Positions 3,829 to 53,561 of a DNA stretch of 64,000 nt are shown here, piece after piece (position 1 is the first letter of the stretch; the number at the start of each line of letters is the position of its first letter). Origin of the DNA: a virus; the IMG/VR virus record IMGVR_UViG_3300024520_000050, positions 1 to 64,000 of that record. One strand, 5' to 3'. The position numbers and the translations under genes are program-made. Below the pieces are notes generated by a model. The model saw only the letters and a program-made list of their open reading frames with translations, was not told the DNA's origin and made no database searches.

Positions 3829-4144
3829 CTGTTCTTTCTTTTATAAATTTAGTTATCATTTCTTCTATTCTATCAACAACCCAATCAACTCTTTCTTTAC
3901 TTCCTTCAGTTTTCCAAAAATAATGTGTTTTAGTAAAGTTAGTCACAAATGGTTTTTGAAATGTAACATAATAGTCACCTAATTCCCATTGCTTCTCATC
4001 CTCACTAATCAACCAATTATGTCGTAATACTAATATTAAAATAGCAGTCACCGTCAATCCTTGACCATGACACATCATTATAACTAAATCACTATGTCCA
4101 TGTTGACATAATTGTGTTAACTTAAGTTCATCTTCTGGGGCCAT
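3821..4144 (-). CDS. paralog family member (subgroup B, divergent)
   Basis: KLTQLCQHGHSDLVIMMCHGQGL N-terminus. Confidence 0.65.
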   Translation of the reverse strand: MAPEDELKLTQLCQHGHSDLVIMMCHGQGLTVTAILILVLRHNWLISEDEKQWELGDYYVTFQKPFVTNFTKTHYFWKTEGSKERVDWVVDRIEEMITKFIKERTDE

Positions 4145-4527
4145 GTGTTATATTTTATGTTACGATCATCTAAAAATCTTTCAATCATTAATGCGAACAT
4201 TTTACGTCTATGATATTTCATAGTTTTCTTTGATATCCTCCAATGATCAAGTATATTGATATCCTTTCGAAAGATTAAAGATTTATGCGATTTGTATATA
4301 TTATAATCACCTAATGAATAAGTTATAAAAACTGTTTTATTAACAAATCCAATTACATTATAATTATAAGAATGGTTATAATACCATCCTTCATTCATAC
4401 ATTTCTGAGCTAATTGGCTTGGTGTATATCCTTGACTAATTGCCATAATTATACCTAAAGCTCGTATTTCATCACATTCACTACCAAGAAACTGTTTTAA
4501 CTTCTTGGTTCTTTCTCCTTTATTCAT
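4117..4527 (-). CDS. paralog family member (subgroup B)
   Basis: KLKQFLGSECDEIRALGIIMAISQGY N-terminus. Confidence 0.75.
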   Translation of the reverse strand: MNKGERTKKLKQFLGSECDEIRALGIIMAISQGYTPSQLAQKCMNEGWYYNHSYNYNVIGFVNKTVFITYSLGDYNIYKSHKSLIFRKDINILDHWRISKKTMKYHRRKMFALMIERFLDDRNIKYNTWPQKMNLS

Positions 4528-10287: not shown

Positions 10288-10328
10288 TGTTTCTTTTTTA
10301 ATTGTTAATAATAAATTTGTATAAATAG

Positions 10329-10420
10329 TGATTCTGGTAGGATTTGCACCTACATCTTCTGCTTACTCATAACCTTCTTCGAGCGGGCGGGGCTAGTGCT
10401 CTACTTGAGCTACAGAATCA
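10329..10420 (-). tRNA. tRNA-like RNA with aberrant anticodon arm (92 nt)
   Basis: TGATTCTG/CAGAATCA acceptor-like stem, GCTC-AAGTA-GAGC D-arm, GTAGG-TGCAAAT-CCTAC T-arm; loop CCCGCCC lacks U33 and purine 37. Confidence 0.6.
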
Positions 10421-24409: not shown

Positions 24410-24590
24410 AATGTTTAATTTTAAGTTTGAGTAAATAAAAATAAGAGGAATAGAACCATCACCTCTTTATAACGTACTCAAGCTAGTTATTCATGCACCA
24501 TGCCTTACGTCTTTATCATCAATGAAAATTACACTGATTAATGTAATTGGACGTCATTGGAGTCAAGATAGTGACAGTTTCTTAATTTTG

Positions 24591-24663
24591 TGAACAGGTG
24601 CGGATTCGAACCGCAGTCTGATGGTTAGCCAACCATTCCTCTGACCAACTGAGGTACCTGTTT
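24591..24663 (-). tRNA. tRNA with 6-nt anticodon loop (UGGCUA); identity undetermined
   Basis: Cloverleaf AAACAGG/CCTGTTC, CCTC-AGTTGGTCA-GAGG, ATGGT-TGGCTA-ACCAT, TGCGG-TTCGAAT-CCGCA; A1-C72 mismatch; no encoded CCA. Confidence 0.8.
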
Positions 24664-39166: not shown

Positions 39167-39865
39167 ATGAAGATTAACGGCTATGATATAACAGCTAAGA
39201 ATGTGTGGGCATACATACAAGGAACTGGGCGCAAAGCACTCAGTGAAAGATATTCAGATATATTTCAATCACCACAACATATCCAAGAGCAGATAGTCTG
39301 GCGCGAAGTGATAGCAAATAAGGAATGTTACACATCAGGAAAGTGTATACATTGTAAATGTAAAATGCCAGACAAGTTATATTCAGATAAAGGATGTGAT
39401 GATGGGTGTTACCCGGAAATAATGAATAGAGATGCATGGAATAACTTCAAACAGTTGTGTGCGCGTAATAAGAGTGATATGTATAATCGTAAGTTCGACT
39501 GGGAAACAGCTCTGGCGGACATGACTAGCTTAGGCCCTGTATCATTTCTATCTCTTATTAGTTCTGATAAAGCAAGCGTGCACCTCGGCGTGGGCCGAGA
39601 AGGTGATATACTCAATCATACATTCGAATTATTCAATCCACATCAAAAGAAACTAACTATAAATCATATACAACCTAGTTGTCATTGTACAACTGCAGTA
39701 CCAAAGTCATATGATATAGAACCTAATGAACATGGTGATATAGATATATTTGTTAATACAAAAGATCTAGAGATAAGAGATCATGAAGTGTGGTTAACAA
39801 TTAGATATAATGATATAGAACGAATTAGCTTACAAATAATTTATACTCTTAAAGAAAAATTATAA
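39167..39865 (+). CDS. Cys-rich N-terminus plus DUF1573-like Ig domain
   Basis: CIHCKC..GCDDGCYP; LTINHIQPSCHCTTA typical of DUF1573. Confidence 0.7.
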   Translation: MKINGYDITAKNVWAYIQGTGRKALSERYSDIFQSPQHIQEQIVWREVIANKECYTSGKCIHCKCKMPDKLYSDKGCDDGCYPEIMNRDAWNNFKQLCARNKSDMYNRKFDWETALADMTSLGPVSFLSLISSDKASVHLGVGREGDILNHTFELFNPHQKKLTINHIQPSCHCTTAVPKSYDIEPNEHGDIDIFVNTKDLEIRDHEVWLTIRYNDIERISLQIIYTLKEKL

Positions 39866-39887
39866 CTAACAACTAACAACTAACTAA

Positions 39888-40631
39888 ATGAAAAAGAAAT
39901 TTTACATGGATACTGAGTTCCATGAATATCAAAAAGATACTACATTACTAAAGGATGCAATTAATTCATCAAGTGTACATCAAACATTAATTGATACAAT
40001 TGAATTAATATCAATTGGTATTATAGATGAAGACGGAAATGAATACTATGCAATATCTAATGAATTTGATATAGATGATGCATGGAATAATGAATGGTTA
40101 AGAGATAATGTACTTAAGAATTTATTTGATAGTAAGATATCAGGTAATAAAACAAGTAGAGAATCAATGACTATTAAGAACTTTAAATCTTATATACTTT
40201 GTTGTGGTAAATCTAAATATCAAATAAGAGAAGAAATTAAATCATTTTGTGTAAATGGAGATTATACTGATGTGAAAAAGAGAATGGATGAAGGTTTAGA
40301 AACTATAGAACCTATTCCAGTTAATGATTACGAATTCTATGCCTACTATGGTGATTACGATTGGGTTGTATTCTGTTGGTTATTCGGAAGAATGATTGAC
40401 TTACCTAAAGGATTCCCAATGTATTGTAAAGATCTCAAGCAATTATTAGATGGTAAAGCAGAACTATTAAAAAAGAAAATATCTAATAGATTCTCTAAAG
40501 GTTTAGATTTTGATGAAGTATTATTTATTAAATCATTACATAATTATCCAACACAAGATAATCTCCATAATGCATTAGATGATGCTAAATGGAATAAAAA
40601 ATTACATGAATTTTTAAATGAATTGCAATGA
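39888..40631 (+). CDS. DEDDh 3'-5' exo(ribo)nuclease (Rv2179c/RNase AS-like)
   Basis: MDTEF, LISIGI, YYGDYDWV, HNALDDAKWN. Confidence 0.85.
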   Translation: MKKKFYMDTEFHEYQKDTTLLKDAINSSSVHQTLIDTIELISIGIIDEDGNEYYAISNEFDIDDAWNNEWLRDNVLKNLFDSKISGNKTSRESMTIKNFKSYILCCGKSKYQIREEIKSFCVNGDYTDVKKRMDEGLETIEPIPVNDYEFYAYYGDYDWVVFCWLFGRMIDLPKGFPMYCKDLKQLLDGKAELLKKKISNRFSKGLDFDEVLFIKSLHNYPTQDNLHNALDDAKWNKKLHEFLNELQ

Positions 40632-40789
40632 TGAAATGGATCAAACAATTATTCTGTAAACACAATTATGAGAAAACATATAGTATTCATGGAGATATGA
40701 TTATTATGACAGGATATAAAAGAAGTGTATGGAGATGCACTAAATGTAAAAAACATAAATTTAGTAACTATTTAAATAAATTAAAATGA
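40628..40789 (+). CDS. 53-aa zinc-ribbon-like protein (not in ORF track)
   Basis: LFCKHNY...WRCTKCKK; start and stop overlap neighbours. Confidence 0.65.
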   Translation: MMKWIKQLFCKHNYEKTYSIHGDMIIMTGYKRSVWRCTKCKKHKFSNYLNKLK

Positions 40790-41133
40790 AACAAGTAAAA
40801 GAAAATGCAGTAGTAGCAAATAACTCACATTCATATTCAGTTAATACATATACAGTTGGCCCTAATGGATTAGAAATAACTGGTGCTCAACCTATTAATT
40901 TAGTACGTGGATCTAAAGTAGATGGTGAAAATATACTTTCTAAACAAGATGGATTCTTAACTGAACAATTACTATGGATTGCACAAAATTATCTATCAGA
41001 AGTAAATGTAGGTGATATGAAGACTAGAGAAACATCAATTGCTATTACTAAGATACAAGAGGCATTAATGTGGATTAATAAGCGTCATGATGATAGAGTA
41101 GAACGTAAGGTGTTAAATACTTATAATAAATAA
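40786..41133 (+). CDS. tad1: Tad1-like anti-Thoeris/anti-CBASS sponge protein
   Basis: C-terminal QDG..EQLL.I..YL....G...RETSIAITKIQEALMWINKRHDDRVERKVLNT matches the Tad1 signature as recalled (QHG..SDLLEIV.DRL..FQAG...[32 protein letters not shown]). Confidence 0.8.
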   Translation: MKQVKENAVVANNSHSYSVNTYTVGPNGLEITGAQPINLVRGSKVDGENILSKQDGFLTEQLLWIAQNYLSEVNVGDMKTRETSIAITKIQEALMWINKRHDDRVERKVLNTYNK

Positions 41134-41579
41134 TGATAAATAAGAAACATAAGCAAAGCATTCGTAAGTTATTAAGTGGTACTAATCTTGATCACTGGAG
41201 TTTAGCATTACAGATATTAACTGGTCAACTTAGTCGAGATAACGCTGAATCAATGATACTACAGTATATTATTAATATACATAATTATAAGATTGAGAGT
41301 AAAATGACAAGTAGTATTAGAACTTGGATTAAAGAGAAAATAATTAATGAGAAATTAATTAATTATTTCAATAGAACCTTTAAATACATAACTGGATTAC
41401 GTGAGCAATTAACAAATGGTCATACTGTACAACATAACGGAGTTCTTACATTATGTCAACTTGAAGACTGGTTTGACTCTATTATTACATCACGCAAACA
41501 AAAAAGTATTACATTGTCATGTGGAAAAGAAATAGCAGAACTATTTGATGAACTAATAAAAGAAGAAATAAATGTATAA
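41133..41579 (+). CDS. chimeric protein: paralog-family-like N-terminus plus major-capsid-derived C-terminal segment
   Basis: Residues 87-118 are 20/32 identical to MCP residues 313-344. Confidence 0.75.
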   Translation: MINKKHKQSIRKLLSGTNLDHWSLALQILTGQLSRDNAESMILQYIINIHNYKIESKMTSSIRTWIKEKIINEKLINYFNRTFKYITGLREQLTNGHTVQHNGVLTLCQLEDWFDSIITSRKQKSITLSCGKEIAELFDELIKEEINV

Positions 41580-41620: not shown

Positions 41621-42538
41621 ATGAAGAAAGGAGAGACTGGATCGAACGTAAAGGATCTACAATATAAATTAAAGAAAGTATTAAATCGTAATATATCAAT
41701 TGATGGTGATTATGGTAATACAACAAAACAAGCAGTTTGGGATTTTCAAGGATTATATAATCTATATGTAGATGGTGTAGCAGGAGAGAAAACAATGGCT
41801 GTATTAAATAGAGCATATAATGCCTTACATAAAGAAAATAGTAACTTACTTAATCTTGGAAAGAAACGATTTGTTATCTTTGTTGATGCTGGTCATGGCG
41901 GTATTAATGATAATGGCAACTATACAACATCCGGAAAACGTGCATACCATAATGGACGTGAACTACATGAACGTGGACACTACTATGAAGGTTATGAGAA
42001 TAGAATAGTTGCAGAAGCATTTATAGAAGCTTGCATGAATAAAGGAATCATGTGTATTCGCACATATCATCCATCCAAAGATACATCTCTTTCGTATCGT
42101 ACTGATTTAATTAGATCATATCTACGTAGAGGATATTATGGATATATGCATTCATTTCATTCTAATGCTATTGCATCATCTAACTCACAAAGTAAAATGG
42201 AAGCAACCAAAGGTTATATGGTATTTAATACTAGAGGAGATACATTTTCAGATGATATAGCTACTATACATTATAATAATGTTAAGGATGAAATAGGAGA
42301 AGGTAACTGGAATTTTAGAGTACAAAAACAAGATGATGGAGATATCGATTTTGAAGTCAATTTCCAAATGTTAAGGGAAACAGATTTAAATGAATTCGAA
42401 AACTTTGGTGCAATACTAGATGAATGGGGATTTCATACATCTGGTGAAGACTGTCAATTTATATTAGACAGTAGAGAACAACGAATAAACGCATGTCTTA
42501 AGACAGCACAATGGGTAAAACAAAAATTAAATAACTAA
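41621..42538 (+). CDS. endolysin: PG_binding_1 plus N-acetylmuramoyl-L-alanine amidase (Amidase_3)
   Basis: DGDYGNTT..DGVAGEKT; VDAGHGG, EGYENR, SFHSNA, E-x-GF motifs. Confidence 0.9.
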   Translation: MKKGETGSNVKDLQYKLKKVLNRNISIDGDYGNTTKQAVWDFQGLYNLYVDGVAGEKTMAVLNRAYNALHKENSNLLNLGKKRFVIFVDAGHGGINDNGNYTTSGKRAYHNGRELHERGHYYEGYENRIVAEAFIEACMNKGIMCIRTYHPSKDTSLSYRTDLIRSYLRRGYYGYMHSFHSNAIASSNSQSKMEATKGYMVFNTRGDTFSDDIATIHYNNVKDEIGEGNWNFRVQKQDDGDIDFEVNFQMLRETDLNEFENFGAILDEWGFHTSGEDCQFILDSREQRINACLKTAQWVKQKLNN

Positions 42539-43818: not shown

Positions 43819-46284
43819 ATGTATAAAACCAAACAAGACTTAAAGAATATACAATTAGAATATGATAAAGGTGTTTTACTTCCAACAGCAAAAGAGAAGT
43901 TGATAATTAATCCTAAGATAGCATATGAGGTAACTAATATTGATGTTAAACAATCAATACCTGAACATGCTATATTAAAAAGGATTGAACCTGTATATGG
44001 TATAATCAGTGACTTCTCTAAAGAATATACTCCGGTAGATAATCTATTGTGGGACTATTTATATTTTACTGATTCTAAATTATTCGCACCTGCAGGAGAA
44101 GCATTCATGAAAAGTCTTAATGCTACTAAAGGTAAGACTGGGTTAAAACCAACATATACTAAACACTTACCCGGAACAACAGCATACAACAGATTCTGGG
44201 AAGAAGAGTTCCTTCGTATAACAAAAGGATATGAACCAGAAATAGATGGTAAACCTTGTGGTATTAAGATACCTGGTGAGTTTTATTTTTATCTGAATTA
44301 TGGTTGGATGCAAAAAGTAGAGTTCAATGATAAAGGAGAAGTAATAAGTGATAAGTCAGGTGTTCCTGATTTTCTATCGATGGATTATTACTTCTATAAA
44401 GAATTAGAAGCTAGAGAAAATCCTGCTAAATATAATCTACCTTTTGAATATAAACAATCTATGTCAATTACTAAGTCTCGTCGTAAAGGATTTAGTTATA
44501 AAGCAGGGTCAGGAGCAGTATGGTGTACAGCATTTAGAGACAAAGCAAAAGTCCTTATTGCGTCAGCTCAAGGAAAAGATGCTACCTTGTGCTTTCAGAA
44601 AGCAATGGATATTATTGATCATATAACATTATATACTCCTTTTGGTAGAAAGAATCCAGGACATCCAAGTTCTAATGGAGGTTGGAAGCATATGACAATG
44701 AGTCAAACTAAGGATCATGGCGAGTTTGTTTTCGGGTTAATTAATACTCGTACAAGAATGAAGAAAGGAAGACGTAGTGAAATAGTTACAGCGTCTTTAT
44801 TTAATAAACCAGATGCTGCTTCTGGTGAAGGTCTTACAAGACTATATATAGAGGAAGCAGGAAAGATATCTAATTTAGCTGATGCATGGGTATTCTCATT
44901 AGAATCAATGCGTGTAGGTTCTGTATATCGTTCAGGGATTGCAGTAATATTTGGAACTGGTGGATCTATGGTATCTGCTTCAGGGAAGAAAGGTTCATCG
45001 CAAGATTTTGCTAATATGAATGATAGACCTGAATCAGTAGGATTAGCTGCATTTAAAAACATATATGAATATAAACCTACACAACGTAAATGTGGTTTCT
45101 TTGTATCTGATATGTGGGCTAACTTTGGTTCTAAGATAACCATAGATGGTAAAGTGCATTATGGTTTAGATAAAAATGGTAATGCATGTTTTTGGGTTGC
45201 TGAATTAGCATTAAATAAAGAACGTGCAGGTAAACGACCACCATTAGGTAAGAAAAGAATATTTGATAAATTCCTTACACAACGTTGTAAAACCCCAGCA
45301 GAAGCATTTCTTATTACAACTGGTAGTCGATTTCAAACTGAAGATCTTGTTGAACGTAAGACTAAAATAGCTATATCACGAGGAGGATTTGAATCATTAC
45401 GGATGCCAGGTGAATTAGTAGACATAGATGGTCGAGTAGAGTTTATACCTAAACCTCATGAAGAACCATTATTAAATACATATAATGAAGCAGAAAGAGA
45501 AGGTTGCTTCTTAAGATATGAACCACCATTAAAATTAGGTGGATCAATACCAGATGATGCATATATTATTTCAGTGGATCCAATTGGTATTAATACAGAT
45601 ACAGGTGGATCATTGACGGCTATTATTGTATTTAAGACAAGAAAGTATGAATCATGGTTAGGTCCTGAAAAGATTGTAGGTATTTACTTTGGTCGTAAGA
45701 AACTTAATCCACAAGGATATGTACATAGATTATTACTTAAATTATCTAAATATTATAATGCTAAGATAACTATAGAGAATGATAGAGATGGTGGTATACC
45801 TCAATACTTTATTCGTAAAGGAGAAGCTGCTAGATTAATGGGACCTCCTATTACTACAATGGAGAAGATTATGCCAGGTAGTAAAACATCACGTAGACCG
45901 TATGGTCATTCAATGTCAACAGTTCGACATAAACAAATTGGAGAAGATTTATTATATGAATGGTTAGATTTACGTGGATCTAATATAACTTATTATGATG
46001 AAGAAGATGGTGAAAAGACTATTGAATCAGGATTACGTAATATAGATAGATTAGAAGATCAACTACTAATTGAACAATTAATTAAGTACGAACGTGGTGG
46101 TAACTACGATTTAGTTATGGCAATGATGGGAATTGTAGTTCAATTAAAAGAATGGTACGATCCAGAAGATACAGATCCATATGAAGAAAATAGTATATCA
46201 GATCAACTTAATAAATGGAAAGTAAAACGATTTGGCTCATATGAAGACAAATTAAAATATAACAAAAGAAAATTTAAACGATAA
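43819..46284 (+). CDS. terL: terminase large subunit
   Basis: Walker A KSRRKGFSY, Walker B YIEEAG, nuclease ISVDP, C-terminal NYDLVMA. Confidence 0.92.
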   Translation: MYKTKQDLKNIQLEYDKGVLLPTAKEKLIINPKIAYEVTNIDVKQSIPEHAILKRIEPVYGIISDFSKEYTPVDNLLWDYLYFTDSKLFAPAGEAFMKSLNATKGKTGLKPTYTKHLPGTTAYNRFWEEEFLRITKGYEPEIDGKPCGIKIPGEFYFYLNYGWMQKVEFNDKGEVISDKSGVPDFLSMDYYFYKELEARENPAKYNLPFEYKQSMSITKSRRKGFSYKAGSGAVWCTAFRDKAKVLIASAQGKDATLCFQKAMDIIDHITLYTPFGRKNPGHPSSNGGWKHMTMSQTKDHGEFVFGLINTRTRMKKGRRSEIVTASLFNKPDAASGEGLTRLYIEEAGKISNLADAWVFSLESMRVGSVYRSGIAVIFGTGGSMVSASGKKGSSQDFANMNDRPESVGLAAFKNIYEYKPTQRKCGFFVSDMWANFGSKITIDGKVHYGLDKNGNACFWVAELALNKERAGKRPPLGKKRIFDKFLTQRCKTPAEAFLITTGSRFQTEDLVERKTKIAISRGGFESLRMPGELVDIDGRVEFIPKPHEEPLLNTYNEAEREGCFLRYEPPLKLGGSIPDDAYIISVDPIGINTDTGGSLTAIIVFKTRKYESWLGPEKIVGIYFGRKKLNPQGYVHRLLLKLSKYYNAKITIENDRDGGIPQYFIRKGEAARLMGPPITTMEKIMPGSKTSRRPYGHSMSTVRHKQIGEDLLYEWLDLRGSNITYYDEEDGEKTIESGLRNIDRLEDQLLIEQLIKYERGGNYDLVMAMMGIVVQLKEWYDPEDTDPYEENSISDQLNKWKVKRFGSYEDKLKYNKRKFKR

Positions 46285-49033: not shown

Positions 49034-49053
49034 AACTAACTAACTAACTAACT
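49034..49053 (+). repeat. (AACT)5 leader of groEL
   Basis: Similar AACT-type tracts precede several late genes (39864, about 43120, about 43810, about 53595). Confidence 0.85.
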
Positions 49054-49062
49054 AAATAAATT

Positions 49063-50625
49063 ATGCATAAAACAACAAGTACAATATTAACTGGAGTTAA
49101 TCTTCTGGTTGATACTGTTAAACAAACACTAGGAACAAAAGGTCGTACTATTTTATTTAATGATGAGAACAATAGAACTCACATTACTAAAGATGGTGTG
49201 ACTGTTGCTCGTCATATCTTTTCAGAAGATGATTATGAGAATATGATAATTACTGTATTACGTGAAGCATCACTTAAGACTATGAAGTCAAGTGGAGACG
49301 GCACTACAACAACAATGATACTTGCTCAATATATTATTAATGAAGGACTTAAATTACTTGATGAAGGATTAAGTTTTTATGAAATGAGTCGTCAAGTTGA
49401 TGAAGCTGTCAAAGATGTAGTAGATTATATTAATAATACTTCAATTAAAATAGAAGATAATCAAGAATTACTTCGTGAAATTGCAGCTATTTCTTCTAAC
49501 GATGAAAAGCTTGGAGATTACATTTATTCAATCATAGAAGAGATTGGATTATATGGAGATATTGAAGTTAAAGAATCTCAATACTCTGAAACTCGTAAGA
49601 TTCAAACTAAAGGAATGAAGTTACATAAAGGTTGGATGGAGAACTTTATGATGAATGATCCACGTGAATTAAAATTTAAAGCAAATGATTGCCATATTCT
49701 TATTATTGATGATATCATTCAAGCTATTACTGATATTGATCAGTATATTAGACACCTTAATGGAAAACCGTTGGTAGTATTCTGTGATGAGGTTACAGAT
49801 ATTACATTATCCCAAATTCAAAAATGGATGAGTACTACAGGTTATCCTGCATGTTTCGTCCACAATGATGGACACGGAGAACGTAAACAAATATTAATGA
49901 ATGATCTTGCTGCATTAACATCAGCATATGTTATTTCTGCACAAGATCCATTTGATCCTGATAATTTAGGATTCACTGGACAGATACAAGTTGGTGAATG
50001 GCATACATCTATATTAGATGGTGAAAGTGATACGGATATGATTGAAGCTATTACATATGATATTCAAGAAATATTAAATGATGATGCAAATGATGATGAA
50101 ACATTAATTACTAATGTAGATCGTAAGTTTCATAAAAAACGCTTAGCTAATTTAACAGGTGGATTAGCAGTAATTCATGTGGGTGGACGTACACAAATGG
50201 AGATGAAAGAATTGAAGGATAGATTTGATGATGCTGTATTGGCTGTAGGAAGTGCTATTAAACAAGGAGTTAATGTTGGGGGTGGTTCTACTTATATTAA
50301 CTGTCAGAAGATACTAAATAAAAGATATAAGGAATCTAAAGGTAGAGGATATAAATTAATTATAGATTCACTTGATTCCCCATTCAAACAATTATTAACT
50401 AATGCTGATCTATCTAGTCAATTTGGATTTTATAAGAATCAACTTACTAAAGGTAAAGCATTAGATCTTCGTGATAATAAATTATATAACCTTGCAACAA
50501 CAAAATATACAGTGTATGATCCATCATCTGTATTGATTGATTCGTTAATTAATGCAACTGCTGTAGCAAAATCATTACTATCTATAAAAGATGTACTTTT
50601 TGATGGAAAGAAACTAGGCGGTTAG
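49063..50625 (+). CDS. groEL: phage chaperonin GroEL-like
   Basis: TLGTKG, ITKDGVTVA, GDGTTT, KDRFDDA, GGG, DP motifs; no GGM tail. Confidence 0.95.
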   Translation: MHKTTSTILTGVNLLVDTVKQTLGTKGRTILFNDENNRTHITKDGVTVARHIFSEDDYENMIITVLREASLKTMKSSGDGTTTTMILAQYIINEGLKLLDEGLSFYEMSRQVDEAVKDVVDYINNTSIKIEDNQELLREIAAISSNDEKLGDYIYSIIEEIGLYGDIEVKESQYSETRKIQTKGMKLHKGWMENFMMNDPRELKFKANDCHILIIDDIIQAITDIDQYIRHLNGKPLVVFCDEVTDITLSQIQKWMSTTGYPACFVHNDGHGERKQILMNDLAALTSAYVISAQDPFDPDNLGFTGQIQVGEWHTSILDGESDTDMIEAITYDIQEILNDDANDDETLITNVDRKFHKKRLANLTGGLAVIHVGGRTQMEMKELKDRFDDAVLAVGSAIKQGVNVGGGSTYINCQKILNKRYKESKGRGYKLIIDSLDSPFKQLLTNADLSSQFGFYKNQLTKGKALDLRDNKLYNLATTKYTVYDPSSVLIDSLINATAVAKSLLSIKDVLFDGKKLGG

Positions 50626-51959: not shown

Positions 51960-53561
51960 ATGTCAGTAAAAAACTTTGAGAATGCTAAAGCGATCCATAA
52001 TGGACAACTTCGTCCAACTGTATTAACAGATGGCCTTTTAGCAACTGGTGAGATTACTGGTCTACACTTAAGCCAAGCTTTCGGTAGTACTGAAAATCTT
52101 GCGACAATTAATATGGGTTATGCACAAATCTTTAGTGCAACTAACCGATATCACAGCAAGCCTATCCTTGGAATGACTGAGGCTAAAGGTAAAGTAAAAA
52201 CAATTAATCGTAGAGGTTTCCGTTGGGAACTATCTGGAGGTAACACACAAAAAGCTCGTATTACACGTGTTGTTTGTACTGATGCTCGTCCAGGTCTACA
52301 TTTACAAACTTTTGATATCGTAGTTGATAAGCCATGGTTTAACGTATCTGATATTATTATTCCTCAGAATAATAAACGTCAATGTCGTGTAAGTACTTTT
52401 GGTAACGGTCAATCACGTAGACATCATCAAGTAGGACCTAACGCTTATCGTTATACTATTCAATACATTACTAATAACGGTAATGAATTCTTACCCGCCA
52501 AGTATATCCAAGAAGGACAAGAATGGTGTAAAGTTTCTAGTGCTGTAGGTGATGAAGATAACATCGATGCTGGTGGATTCCAATTCTACTCAATCTTCGA
52601 AAGTGAAGGTCAAATCCAACAACATGCAATTAAGGTAGAAGTATCTGATAAAGCTGCTCGTCGTGCGAAACAAGCACAAAAAGATGGTAGTGATACAGAT
52701 GAATTCGGTAAATATCTTAAGATGTTATGGGTTAAGTATGAAGACAAAGTAACAGGTGAACCAATGCACCGTTTCATGGCTTTATTAGATGCAGAAGCAT
52801 ATAATGAGTTATACCAAAACGTTGAATGGACATTAATCTTCGGTAAGACATCTAATAACATGGTGACACCAGAAGGACATCAAATCTTAACTGCTTCAGG
52901 ATTACGTCAACAATTAGAATCAGGTTATACACTTGAGCATAATGGTACATTATCTTTAGAAGAATTAGAAGACTGGTTTGATTCAATTATGAAAGACAAA
53001 CTTTCAGAAGGTGAGCAAAAAATCGTTTTATCTGCCGGTCGTGAATTCCGTAAGATGTTCGATAAGATGATCAAAGTAGATGCTAGAGCATTTACAACTA
53101 TTGATACATTATTCCTTCGTAAAGGAGACAACTTCCGTCATATGGATTTTGGTTCTTACTTTGCATCTTATAAAGGTTTCACAGTTGATATTTCTGTAAT
53201 GGAAAATCCAGCTTACGATAATCAATACTACTGCCCACAAATGCACCCAGTGCGTACAGAGGTTTGTATCGATTCATGGAGAGCTGATATCTTGGACTTC
53301 GGATCAAGTAAACAACAAGGAACTGGAGGAGAAACAGATAATATCTGTATGATTCAAGAGTCATACTGTGACTACAATATCACTTACAACGGTAAATGGT
53401 ATGGAGCACATGATGGTAAATCAGGTCAACCAATCACAGATGGTGGTTTAGGACAAGGTGGTGGAGTCTCAGGATATTCTATCCTAAGAGAGAAATCAGC
53501 TGGACTTATGGTTGCTGATGTAACTCGTTGTGGATCAATCTTCTTATCTTTTGACGATTAA
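51960..53561 (+). CDS. major capsid protein
   Basis: 533 aa at the canonical position; FRWEL, AAIA-type head order as in crAss-like phages. Confidence 0.85.
   Translation: MSVKNFENAKAIHNGQLRPTVLTDGLLATGEITGLHLSQAFGSTENLATINMGYAQIFSATNRYHSKPILGMTEAKGKVKTINRRGFRWELSGGNTQKARITRVVCTDARPGLHLQTFDIVVDKPWFNVSDIIIPQNNKRQCRVSTFGNGQSRRHHQVGPNAYRYTIQYITNNGNEFLPAKYIQEGQEWCKVSSAVGDEDNIDAGGFQFYSIFESEGQIQQHAIKVEVSDKAARRAKQAQKDGSDTDEFGKYLKMLWVKYEDKVTGEPMHRFMALLDAEAYNELYQNVEWTLIFGKTSNNMVTPEGHQILTASGLRQQLESGYTLEHNGTLSLEELEDWFDSIMKDKLSEGEQKIVLSAGREFRKMFDKMIKVDARAFTTIDTLFLRKGDNFRHMDFGSYFASYKGFTVDISVMENPAYDNQYYCPQMHPVRTEVCIDSWRADILDFGSSKQQGTGGETDNICMIQESYCDYNITYNGKWYGAHDGKSGQPITDGGLGQGGGVSGYSILREKSAGLMVADVTRCGSIFLSFDD

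What the first reader, a model, noticed from the sequence alone, without database searches (positions are those of the whole stretch)
40786..41133. Tad1-like signalling-molecule sponge in a Bacteroidota/crAss-like phage late operon
Seen: the C-terminal half matches the Tad1 signature (RETSIAITKIQEALMWINKRHDDRVERKVL), compared from memory with Bacillus phage Tad1. Known: Tad1 sequesters gcADPR (Thoeris) and CBASS cyclic nucleotides. Unusual: it sits in the late lysis/head operon, translationally coupled to the capsid-fragment gene and near a DEDD nuclease. Inference: a small anti-defence islet, 39888-41579.
Basis: partly seen in the sequence, partly recalled or inferred. Interest (0 to 1): 0.7.

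Follow-up and report, generated by a model that had tools for sequence, protein, structure and literature searches.

The report
Tad1-family immune-signal sponge in marine crAss-like phage
This small phage gene really does encode a relative of Tad1, a protein phages use to soak up bacterial alarm nucleotides. It is an ordinary new member of a large known family, but part of its ligand pocket differs from the studied examples, so its target signal is uncertain.

Summary
Window 40786-41133 (+) is a 115-aa ORF homologous to solved Tad1 proteins: CbTad1 E 5e-11 over residues 22-114, SBSphiJ7 Tad1 38% over 55-115, and Pfam PF24729 just above cut-off. An AlphaFold model (pLDDT 84) hits only Tad1 structures (TM 0.73).

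The host genome is a complete 178-kb uncultivated phage, distantly crAss-like, with a sister phage in Tara Oceans data.

The cyclic-trinucleotide and hexamer residues are all present, as are the phosphate-clamping Arg pair and the lid Leu. The adenine-stacking Phe and the Hoogsteen Asn needed for gcADPR/cGAMP binding are Val73 and Thr83. This V/T pocket is conserved across the clade, so the protein is most likely a sponge whose pocket ligand is not established.

The gene carries the leader motif of the structural arm. Tad1-like genes lie upstream of TerL in several lineages, and phiKZ's packaged Tad1 is a precedent.

The "anti-defence islet" is only partly supported. The four genes are tightly coupled and the neighbour does carry a capsid-protein fragment. 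However, the DEDD RNase and that fragment are not consistently linked to Tad1 in relatives.

This scan has already noted Tad1-like genes in at least 205 other genomes, including crAss-like phages. Verdict: new member of a known kind.

The parts
40786..41133 (+). Tad1-family gene (115 aa plus stop)
   Evidence: ORF. phmmer to CbTad1 7UAV/7UAW/8KBE-H E 5e-11 and CmTad1 8KBB E 1e-4. Foldseek top hits are all Tad1, TM 0.73. dN/dS 0.16-0.5 against orthologues.
40813..40938 (+). N-terminal antiparallel beta-sheet (residues 10-51)
   Evidence: AF2 model strands 10-13, 16-25, 28-39, 43-46, 49-51. This matches the Tad1 topology described in bioRxiv 10.1101/2022.05.03.490397. Its presence separates the protein from Acb2.
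40960..41106 (+). Two-helix hairpin (alpha1 residues 59-73, loop 74-80, alpha2 residues 81-107)
   Evidence: Carries the pocket and oligomer-interface residues V73, N74, M78, R81, T83, T88, K89, Q91, E92, M95, W96, K99, R100, R104. AF2 pLDDT 93-96. Pfam PF24729 maps to 41020-41082. Residue mapping.
41107..41130 (+). C-terminal tail (residues 108-115), equivalent to the Tad1 lid
   Evidence: Aligns to the CbTad1 116-123 lid, L119 to L110. V109, T112 and Y113 are at least 90% conserved in 72 diverse relatives.
39864..39887 (+). Triple AACTAAC leader in front of the four-gene block
   Evidence: The same motif sits just upstream of the starts of TerL, GroEL, p222 and others. It occurs 16 times on the + strand in the right arm and once on its - strand.
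39888..40631 (+). DEDD 3'-5' exoribonuclease (Rv2179c/RNase AS-like), first gene of the block
   Evidence: phrog_2259 E 3e-46, NF033638 E 4e-26 (below cut-off), PDB 4OKE/6S0M E 1e-14. Its stop overlaps the next start.
40628..40789 (+). 53-aa Cys/His-rich (CxH...CxxC) small protein
   Evidence: ORF. phrog_7696, unknown function, E 5e-8. Not conserved in the sister phage.
41133..41579 (+). 148-aa protein with a copy of MCP residues 313-372 in its C-terminal part
   Evidence: BLASTP to the phage's own MCP: 50% identity over 60 aa, E 5e-18. Not found next to Tad1 in relatives.
41621..42538 (+). Endolysin (PG_binding_1 + Amidase_3)
   Evidence: Pfam and PHROG hits.
43819..46284 (+). Terminase large subunit, crAss-type
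   Evidence: phrog_6681 E 3e-64. 27-28% identity to crAss-like phage TerL.

Best explanation
The ORF encodes a genuine Tad1-family protein. It most likely works as a small homo-oligomeric sponge that sequesters host nucleotide immune signals and so blunts signalling defences such as CBASS or Thoeris.

Shown: homology and predicted fold match solved Tad1 proteins. All residues that form the CmTad1 hexamer interface and the cyclic-trinucleotide site are present. The phosphate-clamping Arg pair and the lid Leu are retained. The gene is under purifying selection and conserved in synteny in sister phages.

Inferred: the protein forms a trimer-of-dimers hexamer that binds cyclic trinucleotides (cA3/cAAG type) at the three-fold sites. 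Its dimer pocket still binds a phosphate-bearing nucleotide, but with altered specificity. The adenine-stacking Phe and Hoogsteen Asn are replaced by a clade-conserved Val73/Thr83 (with conserved Asn74), and Tyr113 stands where CbTad1 has Asn122, so gcADPR or cGAMP binding cannot be assumed. The gene belongs to the structural/packaging arm by position and leader motif, so it is probably expressed with late genes.
For: Sequence: phmmer to CbTad1 E 5e-11 over residues 22-114 and to CmTad1 E 1e-4. SBSphiJ7 Tad1 38% identity over 61 aa. PF24729 above cut-off.

Fold: AF2 pLDDT 84, pTM 0.72, beta-sheet plus two helices. The 15 Foldseek matches at E <= 0.001 shown are all Tad1 (8SMD, 8KBF, 7UAW, 8KBB), probability 1.00, TMq 0.67-0.74 for CbTad1; the next hits are noise.

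Sites: CbTad1 R90/T97 map to R81/T88. CmTad1 R88, T95, K96, Q98, E99, M102, W103, K106 map to R81, T88, K89, Q91, E92, M95, W96, K99, all identical at one offset. R109/R113 map to R100/R104 and L119 to L110. R100, R104 and G56 are invariant in 72 diverse relatives and in all 153 anchored rows of the nearest clusters. The most conserved positions fall in the four loops that build the Tad1 pocket. The Tara sister phage's orthologue has lost R81/T88/M95/W96 but keeps V73, N74, T83, R100, R104, T112 and Y113, which argues that the pocket is the selected core.

Selection and synteny: dN/dS 0.16-0.5; same position in phages with TerL 78% identical.

Anti-defence context elsewhere: one homologue lies 1.2 kb from a Tad2-like gene.

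Plausible targets: type V Thoeris (3'cADPR) is reported as enriched in Bacteroidota (bioRxiv 10.64898/2025.12.03.692087).
Against: No binding, oligomer or in vivo data exist for this protein or, as far as I could find, for any V/T-type homologue. Of the gcADPR-contacting side chains of CbTad1 (F82, N92, R57, R78, F87, H29, N122, R109, R113) only R109 and R113 are identical; F87 to Met is conservative and the rest differ. The N-terminal mappings (H29, R57) come from a low-confidence part of the alignment. The Pfam score is marginal (27.8 against 27). The host, and so its defence repertoire, is unknown. Expression timing is inferred from position and a leader motif only. Generic promoter and terminator scans were uninformative.
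Confidence: 0.7

Rival explanations
1. Canonical Tad1 function. The dimer pocket binds 1''-3'/1''-2' gcADPR (and cGAMP-type dinucleotides) despite the Val/Thr substitutions, so the protein is primarily an anti-Thoeris sponge.
For: Same family and fold. The Arg pair, lid and Gly56 loop are conserved. Tad1 homologues across the family tree were reported to inhibit type I Thoeris and CBASS (PMC12393519). 3'cADPR-using type V Thoeris is enriched in Bacteroidota.
Against: F82A/N92A abolishes gcADPR and 2',3'-cGAMP binding in CbTad1, and the equivalent F100A/N110A mutant was built in SBS Tad1 to test the same pocket. Here those columns are V73 and T83. The residues reading the ribose-ribose linkage (R78, N122, H29) are Y69, Y113 and probably N20. 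About a quarter of the tested sponge homologues inhibited none of seven systems.
Confidence: 0.2
2. The Tad1 fold has been taken over for a job other than counter-defence, for example a virion-associated or assembly-related protein of the packaging module.
For: The gene sits in the structural arm with the arm's leader motif. Tad1-like genes lie just upstream of TerL in several lineages. Some Bacillus phage homologues are annotated 'putative structural protein'. phiKZ Tad1 is physically part of the capsid (bioRxiv 10.1101/2025.11.23.690004).
Against: The invariant residues are the ligand-clamping Arg pair and the pocket loops, not a surface typical of a scaffold. phiKZ gp184 is packaged yet still acts as a sponge after injection. 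The 'structural' labels are unverified annotations. The protein lacks an N-terminal extension like the one that anchors gp184.
Confidence: 0.07
3. It is an Acb2-type (anti-CBASS 2) protein rather than Tad1, because the only Pfam match is the hairpin domain shared by both families.
For: PF24729 is the shared Acb2/Tad1 hairpin and matches only residues 79-99.
Against: No Acb2 chain appears in the PDB sequence search even at E <= 10, nor among the Foldseek matches listed. The N-terminal beta-sheet that characterises Tad1 is predicted with confidence, and the alignment to CbTad1 spans residues 22-114.
Confidence: 0.02

Closest known systems
CbTad1 (Clostridium botulinum prophage Thoeris anti-defence 1; PDB 7UAV, 7UAW, 8SMD, 8KBE-8KBH)
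   Same: About 30% identity over nearly the full length. Same predicted fold (TM 0.73), same length class. Conserved cyclic-trinucleotide site (R90/T97), Arg109/Arg113 phosphate clamp, Leu119 and a C-terminal lid.
   Different: F82 to Val73, N92 to Thr83, R78 to Tyr69, N122 to Tyr113, R57 probably to Glu48. The base-specific and linkage-specific gcADPR contacts are therefore not conserved.
CmTad1 (Clostridioides mangenotii Tad1; PDB 8KBB-8KBD)
   Same: All eight published hexamer-interface and cA3-site residues (R88, T95, K96, Q98, E99, M102, W103, K106) are identical in the window protein at a single offset.
   Different: Weaker overall similarity (E 1e-4, residues 56-107 only; TM 0.61). I did not see the residue-by-residue alignment and inferred it from the ungapped phmmer ranges and the paper's numbering.
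SBSphiJ7 Tad1 (founding member, Bacillus phage, 142 aa)
   Same: 38% identity over the helical hairpin and tail. The R127/R131 equivalents are kept.
   Different: The F100/N110 equivalents are Val/Thr. SBS Tad1 is 27 residues longer at the N-terminus. It is encoded in a Herelleviridae genome, not beside the packaging genes.
Cellulophaga phage phi17:2 gp072 and phi4:1 homologue (Lightbulbvirus, Bacteroidota host; annotated hypothetical)
   Same: Closest homologue in a cultured phage (36% identity, full length). Also lies upstream of TerL on the same strand. Bacteroidota host.
   Different: It keeps an aromatic residue (Phe) eight positions before the conserved Arg and has Ser at the N92 column. 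Its TerL is only remotely related. The DEDD RNase of that phage lies 22 kb away.
phiKZ gp184 (Tad1 of a jumbo Pseudomonas phage)
   Same: A Tad1-type sponge expressed with virion genes. This is a precedent for a structural-arm location.
   Different: gp184 is anchored in the capsid by its N-terminus, cleaved and injected. The window protein has no such extension, and no sequence or Foldseek match to gp184 was seen here.

Membership tests
Tad1 (Thoeris anti-defence 1) protein family | Significant sequence homology to experimentally validated Tad1 proteins | tested here: met
   CbTad1 E 5e-11 over residues 22-114; CmTad1 E 1e-4. SBSphiJ7 Tad1 38% identity, pairwise E 9e-13.
Tad1 (Thoeris anti-defence 1) protein family | Fold: N-terminal antiparallel beta-sheet followed by two long C-terminal helices | tested here: met
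   AF2 model pLDDT 84 with five strands plus helices 59-73 and 81-107. Foldseek top hits are exclusively Tad1, TM 0.67-0.74.
Tad1 (Thoeris anti-defence 1) protein family | Pfam PF24729 Acb2/Tad1 hairpin domain at or above the gathering score | tested here: met
   27.8 bits against cut-off 27; 28.4 bits in the genome scan. Marginal.
Tad1 (Thoeris anti-defence 1) protein family | Arg pair that clamps the ligand phosphates (CbTad1 R109/R113; SBS R127/R131) | tested here: met
   R100 and R104. Invariant in 72 diverse relatives and in 153 of 153 anchored rows.
Tad1 (Thoeris anti-defence 1) protein family | Adenine-stacking Phe and Hoogsteen-reading Asn of the gcADPR/CDN pocket (CbTad1 F82/N92; SBS F100/N110). 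This defines the activity, not family membership: 12% of nr homologues are reported to carry substitutions at this site. | tested here: not met
   Val73 and Thr83 in the high-confidence helical part of the alignment. The V/T combination is the most common among the 153 nearest clusters: 65 V/T against 4 F/N.
Tad1 (Thoeris anti-defence 1) protein family | Cyclic-trinucleotide site and hexamer interface (CbTad1 R90/T97; CmTad1 R88, T95, K96, Q98, E99, M102, W103, K106) | tested here: met
   R81, T88, K89, Q91, E92, M95, W96, K99 are all identical. Sequence level only.
Tad1 (Thoeris anti-defence 1) protein family | C-terminal tail that closes over the ligand | tested here: met
   Residues 108-115 align to CbTad1 116-123. 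L119 maps to L110; V109/T112/Y113 are at least 90% conserved. N122 is Tyr here.
Tad1 (Thoeris anti-defence 1) protein family | Homo-oligomer (dimer, or trimer of dimers) in solution | not testable with these tools
   Only single-chain prediction is available. Needs SEC-MALS or a multimer prediction.
Tad1 (Thoeris anti-defence 1) protein family | Sequesters gcADPR or cyclic oligonucleotides without cleaving them, and inhibits Thoeris/CBASS | not testable with these tools
   Biochemical and in vivo assays are required.
Acb2 (anti-CBASS 2) | Small protein homologous to PaMx33/JBD67 Acb2 or T4 Vs.4, without the Tad1 beta-sheet (the Acb2 architecture is from my own knowledge, not tested here) | tested here: not met
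   No Acb2 chain at E <= 10 in the PDB sequence search or in the Foldseek list. An N-terminal beta-sheet is predicted.
crAss-like phages (Crassvirales and relatives) - host genome | crAss-type TerL, portal and MCP in the conserved order | tested here: met
   TerL 27-28% identity over 82-84% of its length to cr130_1, cr115_1 and others (best E 1e-43). MCP 21-23% identity. Order is TerL, portal, GroEL, MCP. Distant: the genome is 178 kb and other hallmarks, such as the giant RNAP, were not examined.

The most novel reading that the evidence does not exclude
The Val73/Asn74/Thr83 pocket type is the commonest among this protein's 150 nearest sequence clusters. I found no cultured-phage or characterised representative. 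It may be a Tad1 subfamily re-tuned to an immune signal other than gcADPR, for example the c-di-GMP of Bacteroidota TIR-STING systems or a TIR product not yet described. In addition, the gene may be made late and delivered with the virion as in phiKZ, with the translationally coupled capsid-fragment protein serving as a loader or as a decoy for capsid-sensing immunity.
Probability: 0.15. Interest if true: 0.6.

Novelty: new member of a known kind. Interest (0 to 1): 0.3.

Why it matters
It extends a well-studied counter-defence family into large marine crAss-related phages of probable Bacteroidota hosts. It also flags a numerous, apparently uncharacterised pocket variant. Tad1 co-crystals were the route by which gcADPR signals were first identified. 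A divergent but clearly selected pocket is therefore a practical probe for whatever signal the hosts of these phages use. The recurrent placement just upstream of the terminase, together with the phiKZ precedent, also raises the question of whether late or packaged sponges are common. By itself the finding is a routine family assignment.

Tried and rejected
- PADLOC and NCBIfam gave no hit for the Tad1 ORF. This is uninformative, because those libraries do not model anti-defence proteins.
- A megablast of 8 kb around the gene against INPHARED found nothing.
- The genome-contig scan with alignment A2 found no prophage relatives. A wider alignment (A4) was too diverse to derive patterns. I therefore could not tabulate host taxa for the V/T subfamily.
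- Supplementary tables of the 84-sponge screen (PMC12393519) are not held. I could not check whether a V/T-type Tad1 has been tested or whether this protein is in that IMG/VR-derived set.
- Sigma-70-type promoter and terminator scans and the Bacteroides TTTG...TAnnTTTG pattern were at chance level, so they say nothing about timing.
- The DEDD RNase as an obligate partner of Tad1 is rejected. It is absent in L007, 22 kb away in phi17:2, and sits among genes annotated DnaQ-like or RNase H in actinophages.
- Conservation of the capsid-fragment gene or the 53-aa gene next to Tad1 is rejected.
- Tad2 elsewhere in the genome: none found.
- Searching the records behind L004, L007 and L010 for the 148-aa protein was not possible, because those records are not held.

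Full report
**1. The observation**

Window 40786-41133 (+) is an ATG-to-TAA ORF of 115 aa. Its start overlaps the stop of a 53-aa ORF (ATGA). Its stop overlaps the start of a 148-aa ORF (TAATG). The 53-aa ORF in turn overlaps the stop of a 247-aa ORF. So 39888-41579 is four tightly coupled genes.

The quoted C-terminal stretch is present and matches CbTad1 at 17 of 30 positions within a longer alignment.

**2. Family assignment**

- Pfam gives one hit, PF24729 Acb2_Tad1_hairpin: 27.8 bits against a cut-off of 27, residues 79-99 (repeated).
- phmmer against all PDB chains returns only Tad1 entries. CbTad1 (7UAV, 7UAW, 8SMD, 8KBE-H) scores E 5e-11 over residues 22-114. CmTad1 (8KBB-D) scores E 1e-4.
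- tblastn against 50,697 phage records finds 58 records. They include the founding SBSphiJ7 Tad1 (38% identity over residues 55-115) and full-length homologues in Cellulophaga phages phi17:2 and phi4:1 (36%).
- An AlphaFold2 model built on ten close homologues has pLDDT 84 and pTM 0.72. It shows an N-terminal five-stranded sheet followed by helices 59-73 and 81-107. This is the topology described for Tad1 (bioRxiv 10.1101/2022.05.03.490397).
- Foldseek against the PDB gives 15 hits at E <= 0.001. Those listed are all Tad1 chains (best 8SMD_B, E 3.6e-8, TMq 0.73). From rank 21 the hits are ribosomal and other noise.
- No Acb2 chain appears in either search, so this is Tad1 and not Acb2.
- A profile search of 1.84 billion cluster representatives finds 1,893 clusters at E <= 1e-3 and 322 at E <= 1e-10. 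The family is large.

**3. The genome**

The window is part of a 178,400-bp IMG/VR virus record rated 100% complete, with about 30% G+C. It has a leftward arm up to about 36 kb and a rightward arm after that.

The rightward arm holds, in order:
- a weak winged-helix protein and several unknown proteins;
- a DUF1573 protein;
- the four-gene block;
- an endolysin (PG_binding_1 + Amidase_3);
- TerL (821 aa), portal (910 aa), a GroEL homologue and the MCP.

TerL is 27-28% identical over more than 80% of its length to crAss-like phages (cr130_1, cr115_1 and others) and to Flavobacterium psychrophilum phages. The MCP is 21-23% identical to the same groups. "Distantly crAss-like, probably Bacteroidota-infecting" is therefore reasonable. 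A Tara Oceans scaffold of 174 kb is a sister phage (TerL 78% identical), which points to a marine origin.

**4. Functional sites**

I mapped published residue numbers onto the phmmer and BLAST alignments. In the helical part, which has high posterior probabilities, CbTad1 numbering equals window numbering plus 9, and SBS Tad1 numbering equals window numbering plus 27.

(a) *Cyclic-trinucleotide site and hexamer interface.*
- CbTad1 R90 and T97 bind cA3, and their mutation abolishes NucC inhibition. They correspond to R81 and T88.
- The CmTad1 interface residues R88, T95, K96, Q98, E99, M102, W103 and K106 correspond to R81, T88, K89, Q91, E92, M95, W96 and K99.
- All eight are identical at one offset.

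(b) *Dimer pocket for gcADPR and cyclic dinucleotides.*
- According to the Tad1 papers, F82 and R109 sandwich the adenine and N92 reads its Hoogsteen edge.
- R57, R109 and R113 hold the phosphates, and F87 buttresses the ribose.
- H29, G55(NH), R78 and N122 read the ribose-ribose linkage.
- F82A/N92A and R109A/R113A each destroy gcADPR and 2',3'-cGAMP binding. The SBS Tad1 equivalents are F100/N110 and R127/R131.
- In the window protein R100, R104 and L110 (for L119) are kept, and M78 replaces F87.
- The other equivalents differ: F82 is V73, N92 is T83, R78 is Y69, N122 is Y113, and R57 is probably E48. The alignment is unreliable for R57 and for H29.

**5. Is the altered pocket degenerate or selected?**

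In 72 diverse relatives the only invariant columns are G56, R100 and R104. Y17, G28, G42, E60, L70, I87, V109, T112 and Y113 are at least 90% conserved. These fall largely in the beta2-beta3 and beta4-alpha1 loops, helix alpha2 and the tail, the elements that build the Tad1 pocket.

I anchored the 153 nearest cluster rows on R100:
- Val/Thr at the F82/N92 columns: 65.
- Tyr or Phe with Thr: 18.
- The canonical Phe/Asn: 4.
- Asn74 is present in 139 of 166 aligned rows.

The Tara sister phage's orthologue has lost the trinucleotide and hexamer signature (R81N, T88K, M95I, W96L). It keeps V73, N74, T83, R100, R104, T112 and Y113. The pocket therefore looks like the selected core of this clade, with a composition different from the studied Tad1 proteins.

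Pairwise dN/dS among four orthologues is 0.16-0.5, with dS near saturation.

A survey of NCBI nr reported substitutions at the CDN/gcADPR site in only 12% of Tad1 homologues. In the metagenomic neighbourhood of this protein they are the rule.

No cultured phage in INPHARED carries a closer homologue than the 36% Cellulophaga protein.

**6. Context and the "islet"**

The 247-aa neighbour is a DEDD 3'-5' exoribonuclease of the Rv2179c/RNase AS type: PDB 4OKE/6S0M E 1e-14, phrog_2259 E 3e-46, and NF033638 below cut-off. Its linkage to Tad1 is inconsistent:
- It is retained (46% identity) in the same relative position in the Tara sister phage, separated from Tad1 by an unrelated 108-aa gene.
- It is absent between DUF1573 and Tad1 in another relative, L007.
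- It lies 22 kb from the Tad1 homologue in phi17:2.
- It is widespread in actinophages, where it is annotated DnaQ-like or RNase H.

The 148-aa neighbour really does carry a copy of MCP residues 313-372 (50% identity, E 5e-18). Neither it nor the 53-aa Cys/His-rich protein is found beside Tad1 in relatives.

So the tight operon is real. Only Tad1 has an anti-defence assignment, and the partners are lineage-specific. Elsewhere a homologue sits 1.2 kb from a Tad2-like gene, which fits the family's role.

**7. Position and timing**

Tad1-like genes lie on the same strand shortly upstream of the terminase in several lineages:
- the window, L004 and L007 lineage;
- L010 and L011, with TerL only 22-23% identical to the window's. 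In L011 the TerL match begins about 700 bp after Tad1, and by extrapolation the gene should start about 250 bp after it;
- phi17:2;
- a siphovirus-like contig, L008.

The four-gene block is preceded by a triple AACTAAC leader. This motif sits immediately before the starts of TerL, GroEL, p222, the first gene of the arm and others. It occurs 16 times on the + strand of the right arm and once on its - strand.

The left arm uses ACTCAAA instead: 27 of 27 minus-strand copies lie in 1-36000. By this signature the block belongs to the structural arm, but expression timing remains an inference.

Late expression of a sponge has a published precedent. phiKZ gp184/Tad1 is wedged into the capsid, released by the head protease and injected (bioRxiv 10.1101/2025.11.23.690004; PMC13282480). 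The window protein has no N-terminal extension comparable to that anchor.

**8. Verdict**

The most likely mechanism is sequestration of nucleotide immune signals by a homo-oligomer.
- Cyclic-trinucleotide binding is the best-supported specific prediction.
- The ligand of the remodelled dimer pocket is open.
- gcADPR or cGAMP binding should not be assumed.

The family is already large and well surveyed: 799 homologues in 2022 and 1,587 non-redundant ones in IMG/VR in 2025. This scan has itself noted Tad1-like genes in at least 205 other genomes, including crAss-like phages with the same RETS-for-RENA change. This is a new member of a known kind, of modest interest. The conserved V/T pocket is the one feature worth a bench test.

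Noticed in passing
window 41133-41579 (+), compared with MCP at 51960-53561: The 148-aa ORF translationally coupled to Tad1 contains a diverged copy of the phage's own major capsid protein residues 313-372 (50% identity over 60 aa, E 5e-18). It is not present next to Tad1 in the relatives examined. It could be a capsid-interacting adaptor or a decoy; its function is unknown.
   Followed up: partly
window 39888-40631 (+): An Rv2179c/RNase AS-like DEDD 3'-5' exoribonuclease heads the operon. Homologues are common in actinophages and Cellulophaga phages. It is linked to Tad1 only in the immediate sister phage.
   Followed up: partly
window + strand: 36375, 37315, 39864-39884, 43125, 43811, 49034-49052, 53595; - strand ACTCAAA in 1-36000: The two arms use different leader motifs just upstream of start codons: (AACTAAC)n in the rightward structural arm (16 of 18 plus-strand copies) and ACTCAAA in the leftward arm (27 of 27 minus-strand copies). 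They probably mark arm-specific regulatory or initiation signals.
   Followed up: partly
L003 (phi17:2) 3992-4336; L010 29-367; L011 6001-6309; L008 3398-3736; L004 6001-6351: Tad1-like genes recur on the same strand shortly upstream of the large terminase gene in several phage lineages with very different terminases. This suggests a preferred insertion or expression niche.
   Followed up: partly
L004 6001-6351 (Tara Oceans sister phage orthologue, P0005): The orthologue in the closest relative has lost the cyclic-trinucleotide and hexamer signature (R81N, T88K, M95I, W96L) while keeping every conserved residue of the dimer pocket. Within one phage lineage the two Tad1 sites evolve independently.
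   Followed up: partly
contig carrying P0009 (no DNA held): A 113-aa Tad1-like gene and a Tad2-like (PF11195) gene lie 1.2 kb apart behind an HTH gene. This looks like a two-sponge anti-defence cluster.
   Followed up: no
window 49063-50625 (+): A full-length GroEL-type chaperonin (phrog_5725, E 2e-104) is encoded between the portal and the major capsid protein.
   Followed up: no
P0004 / L007 6001-6468, and other representatives of 150-300 aa: Many family members carry N-terminal extensions of 40-190 residues. In P0004 the profile matches in two stretches, which suggests a partial duplication of the N-terminal strands.
   Followed up: no
window 10328-10419 (-) and 24590-24663 (-): ARAGORN reports a 92-nt tRNA-Ala(CGC), unusually long, and a tRNA-like gene with an unassignable two-base anticodon call.
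   Followed up: no
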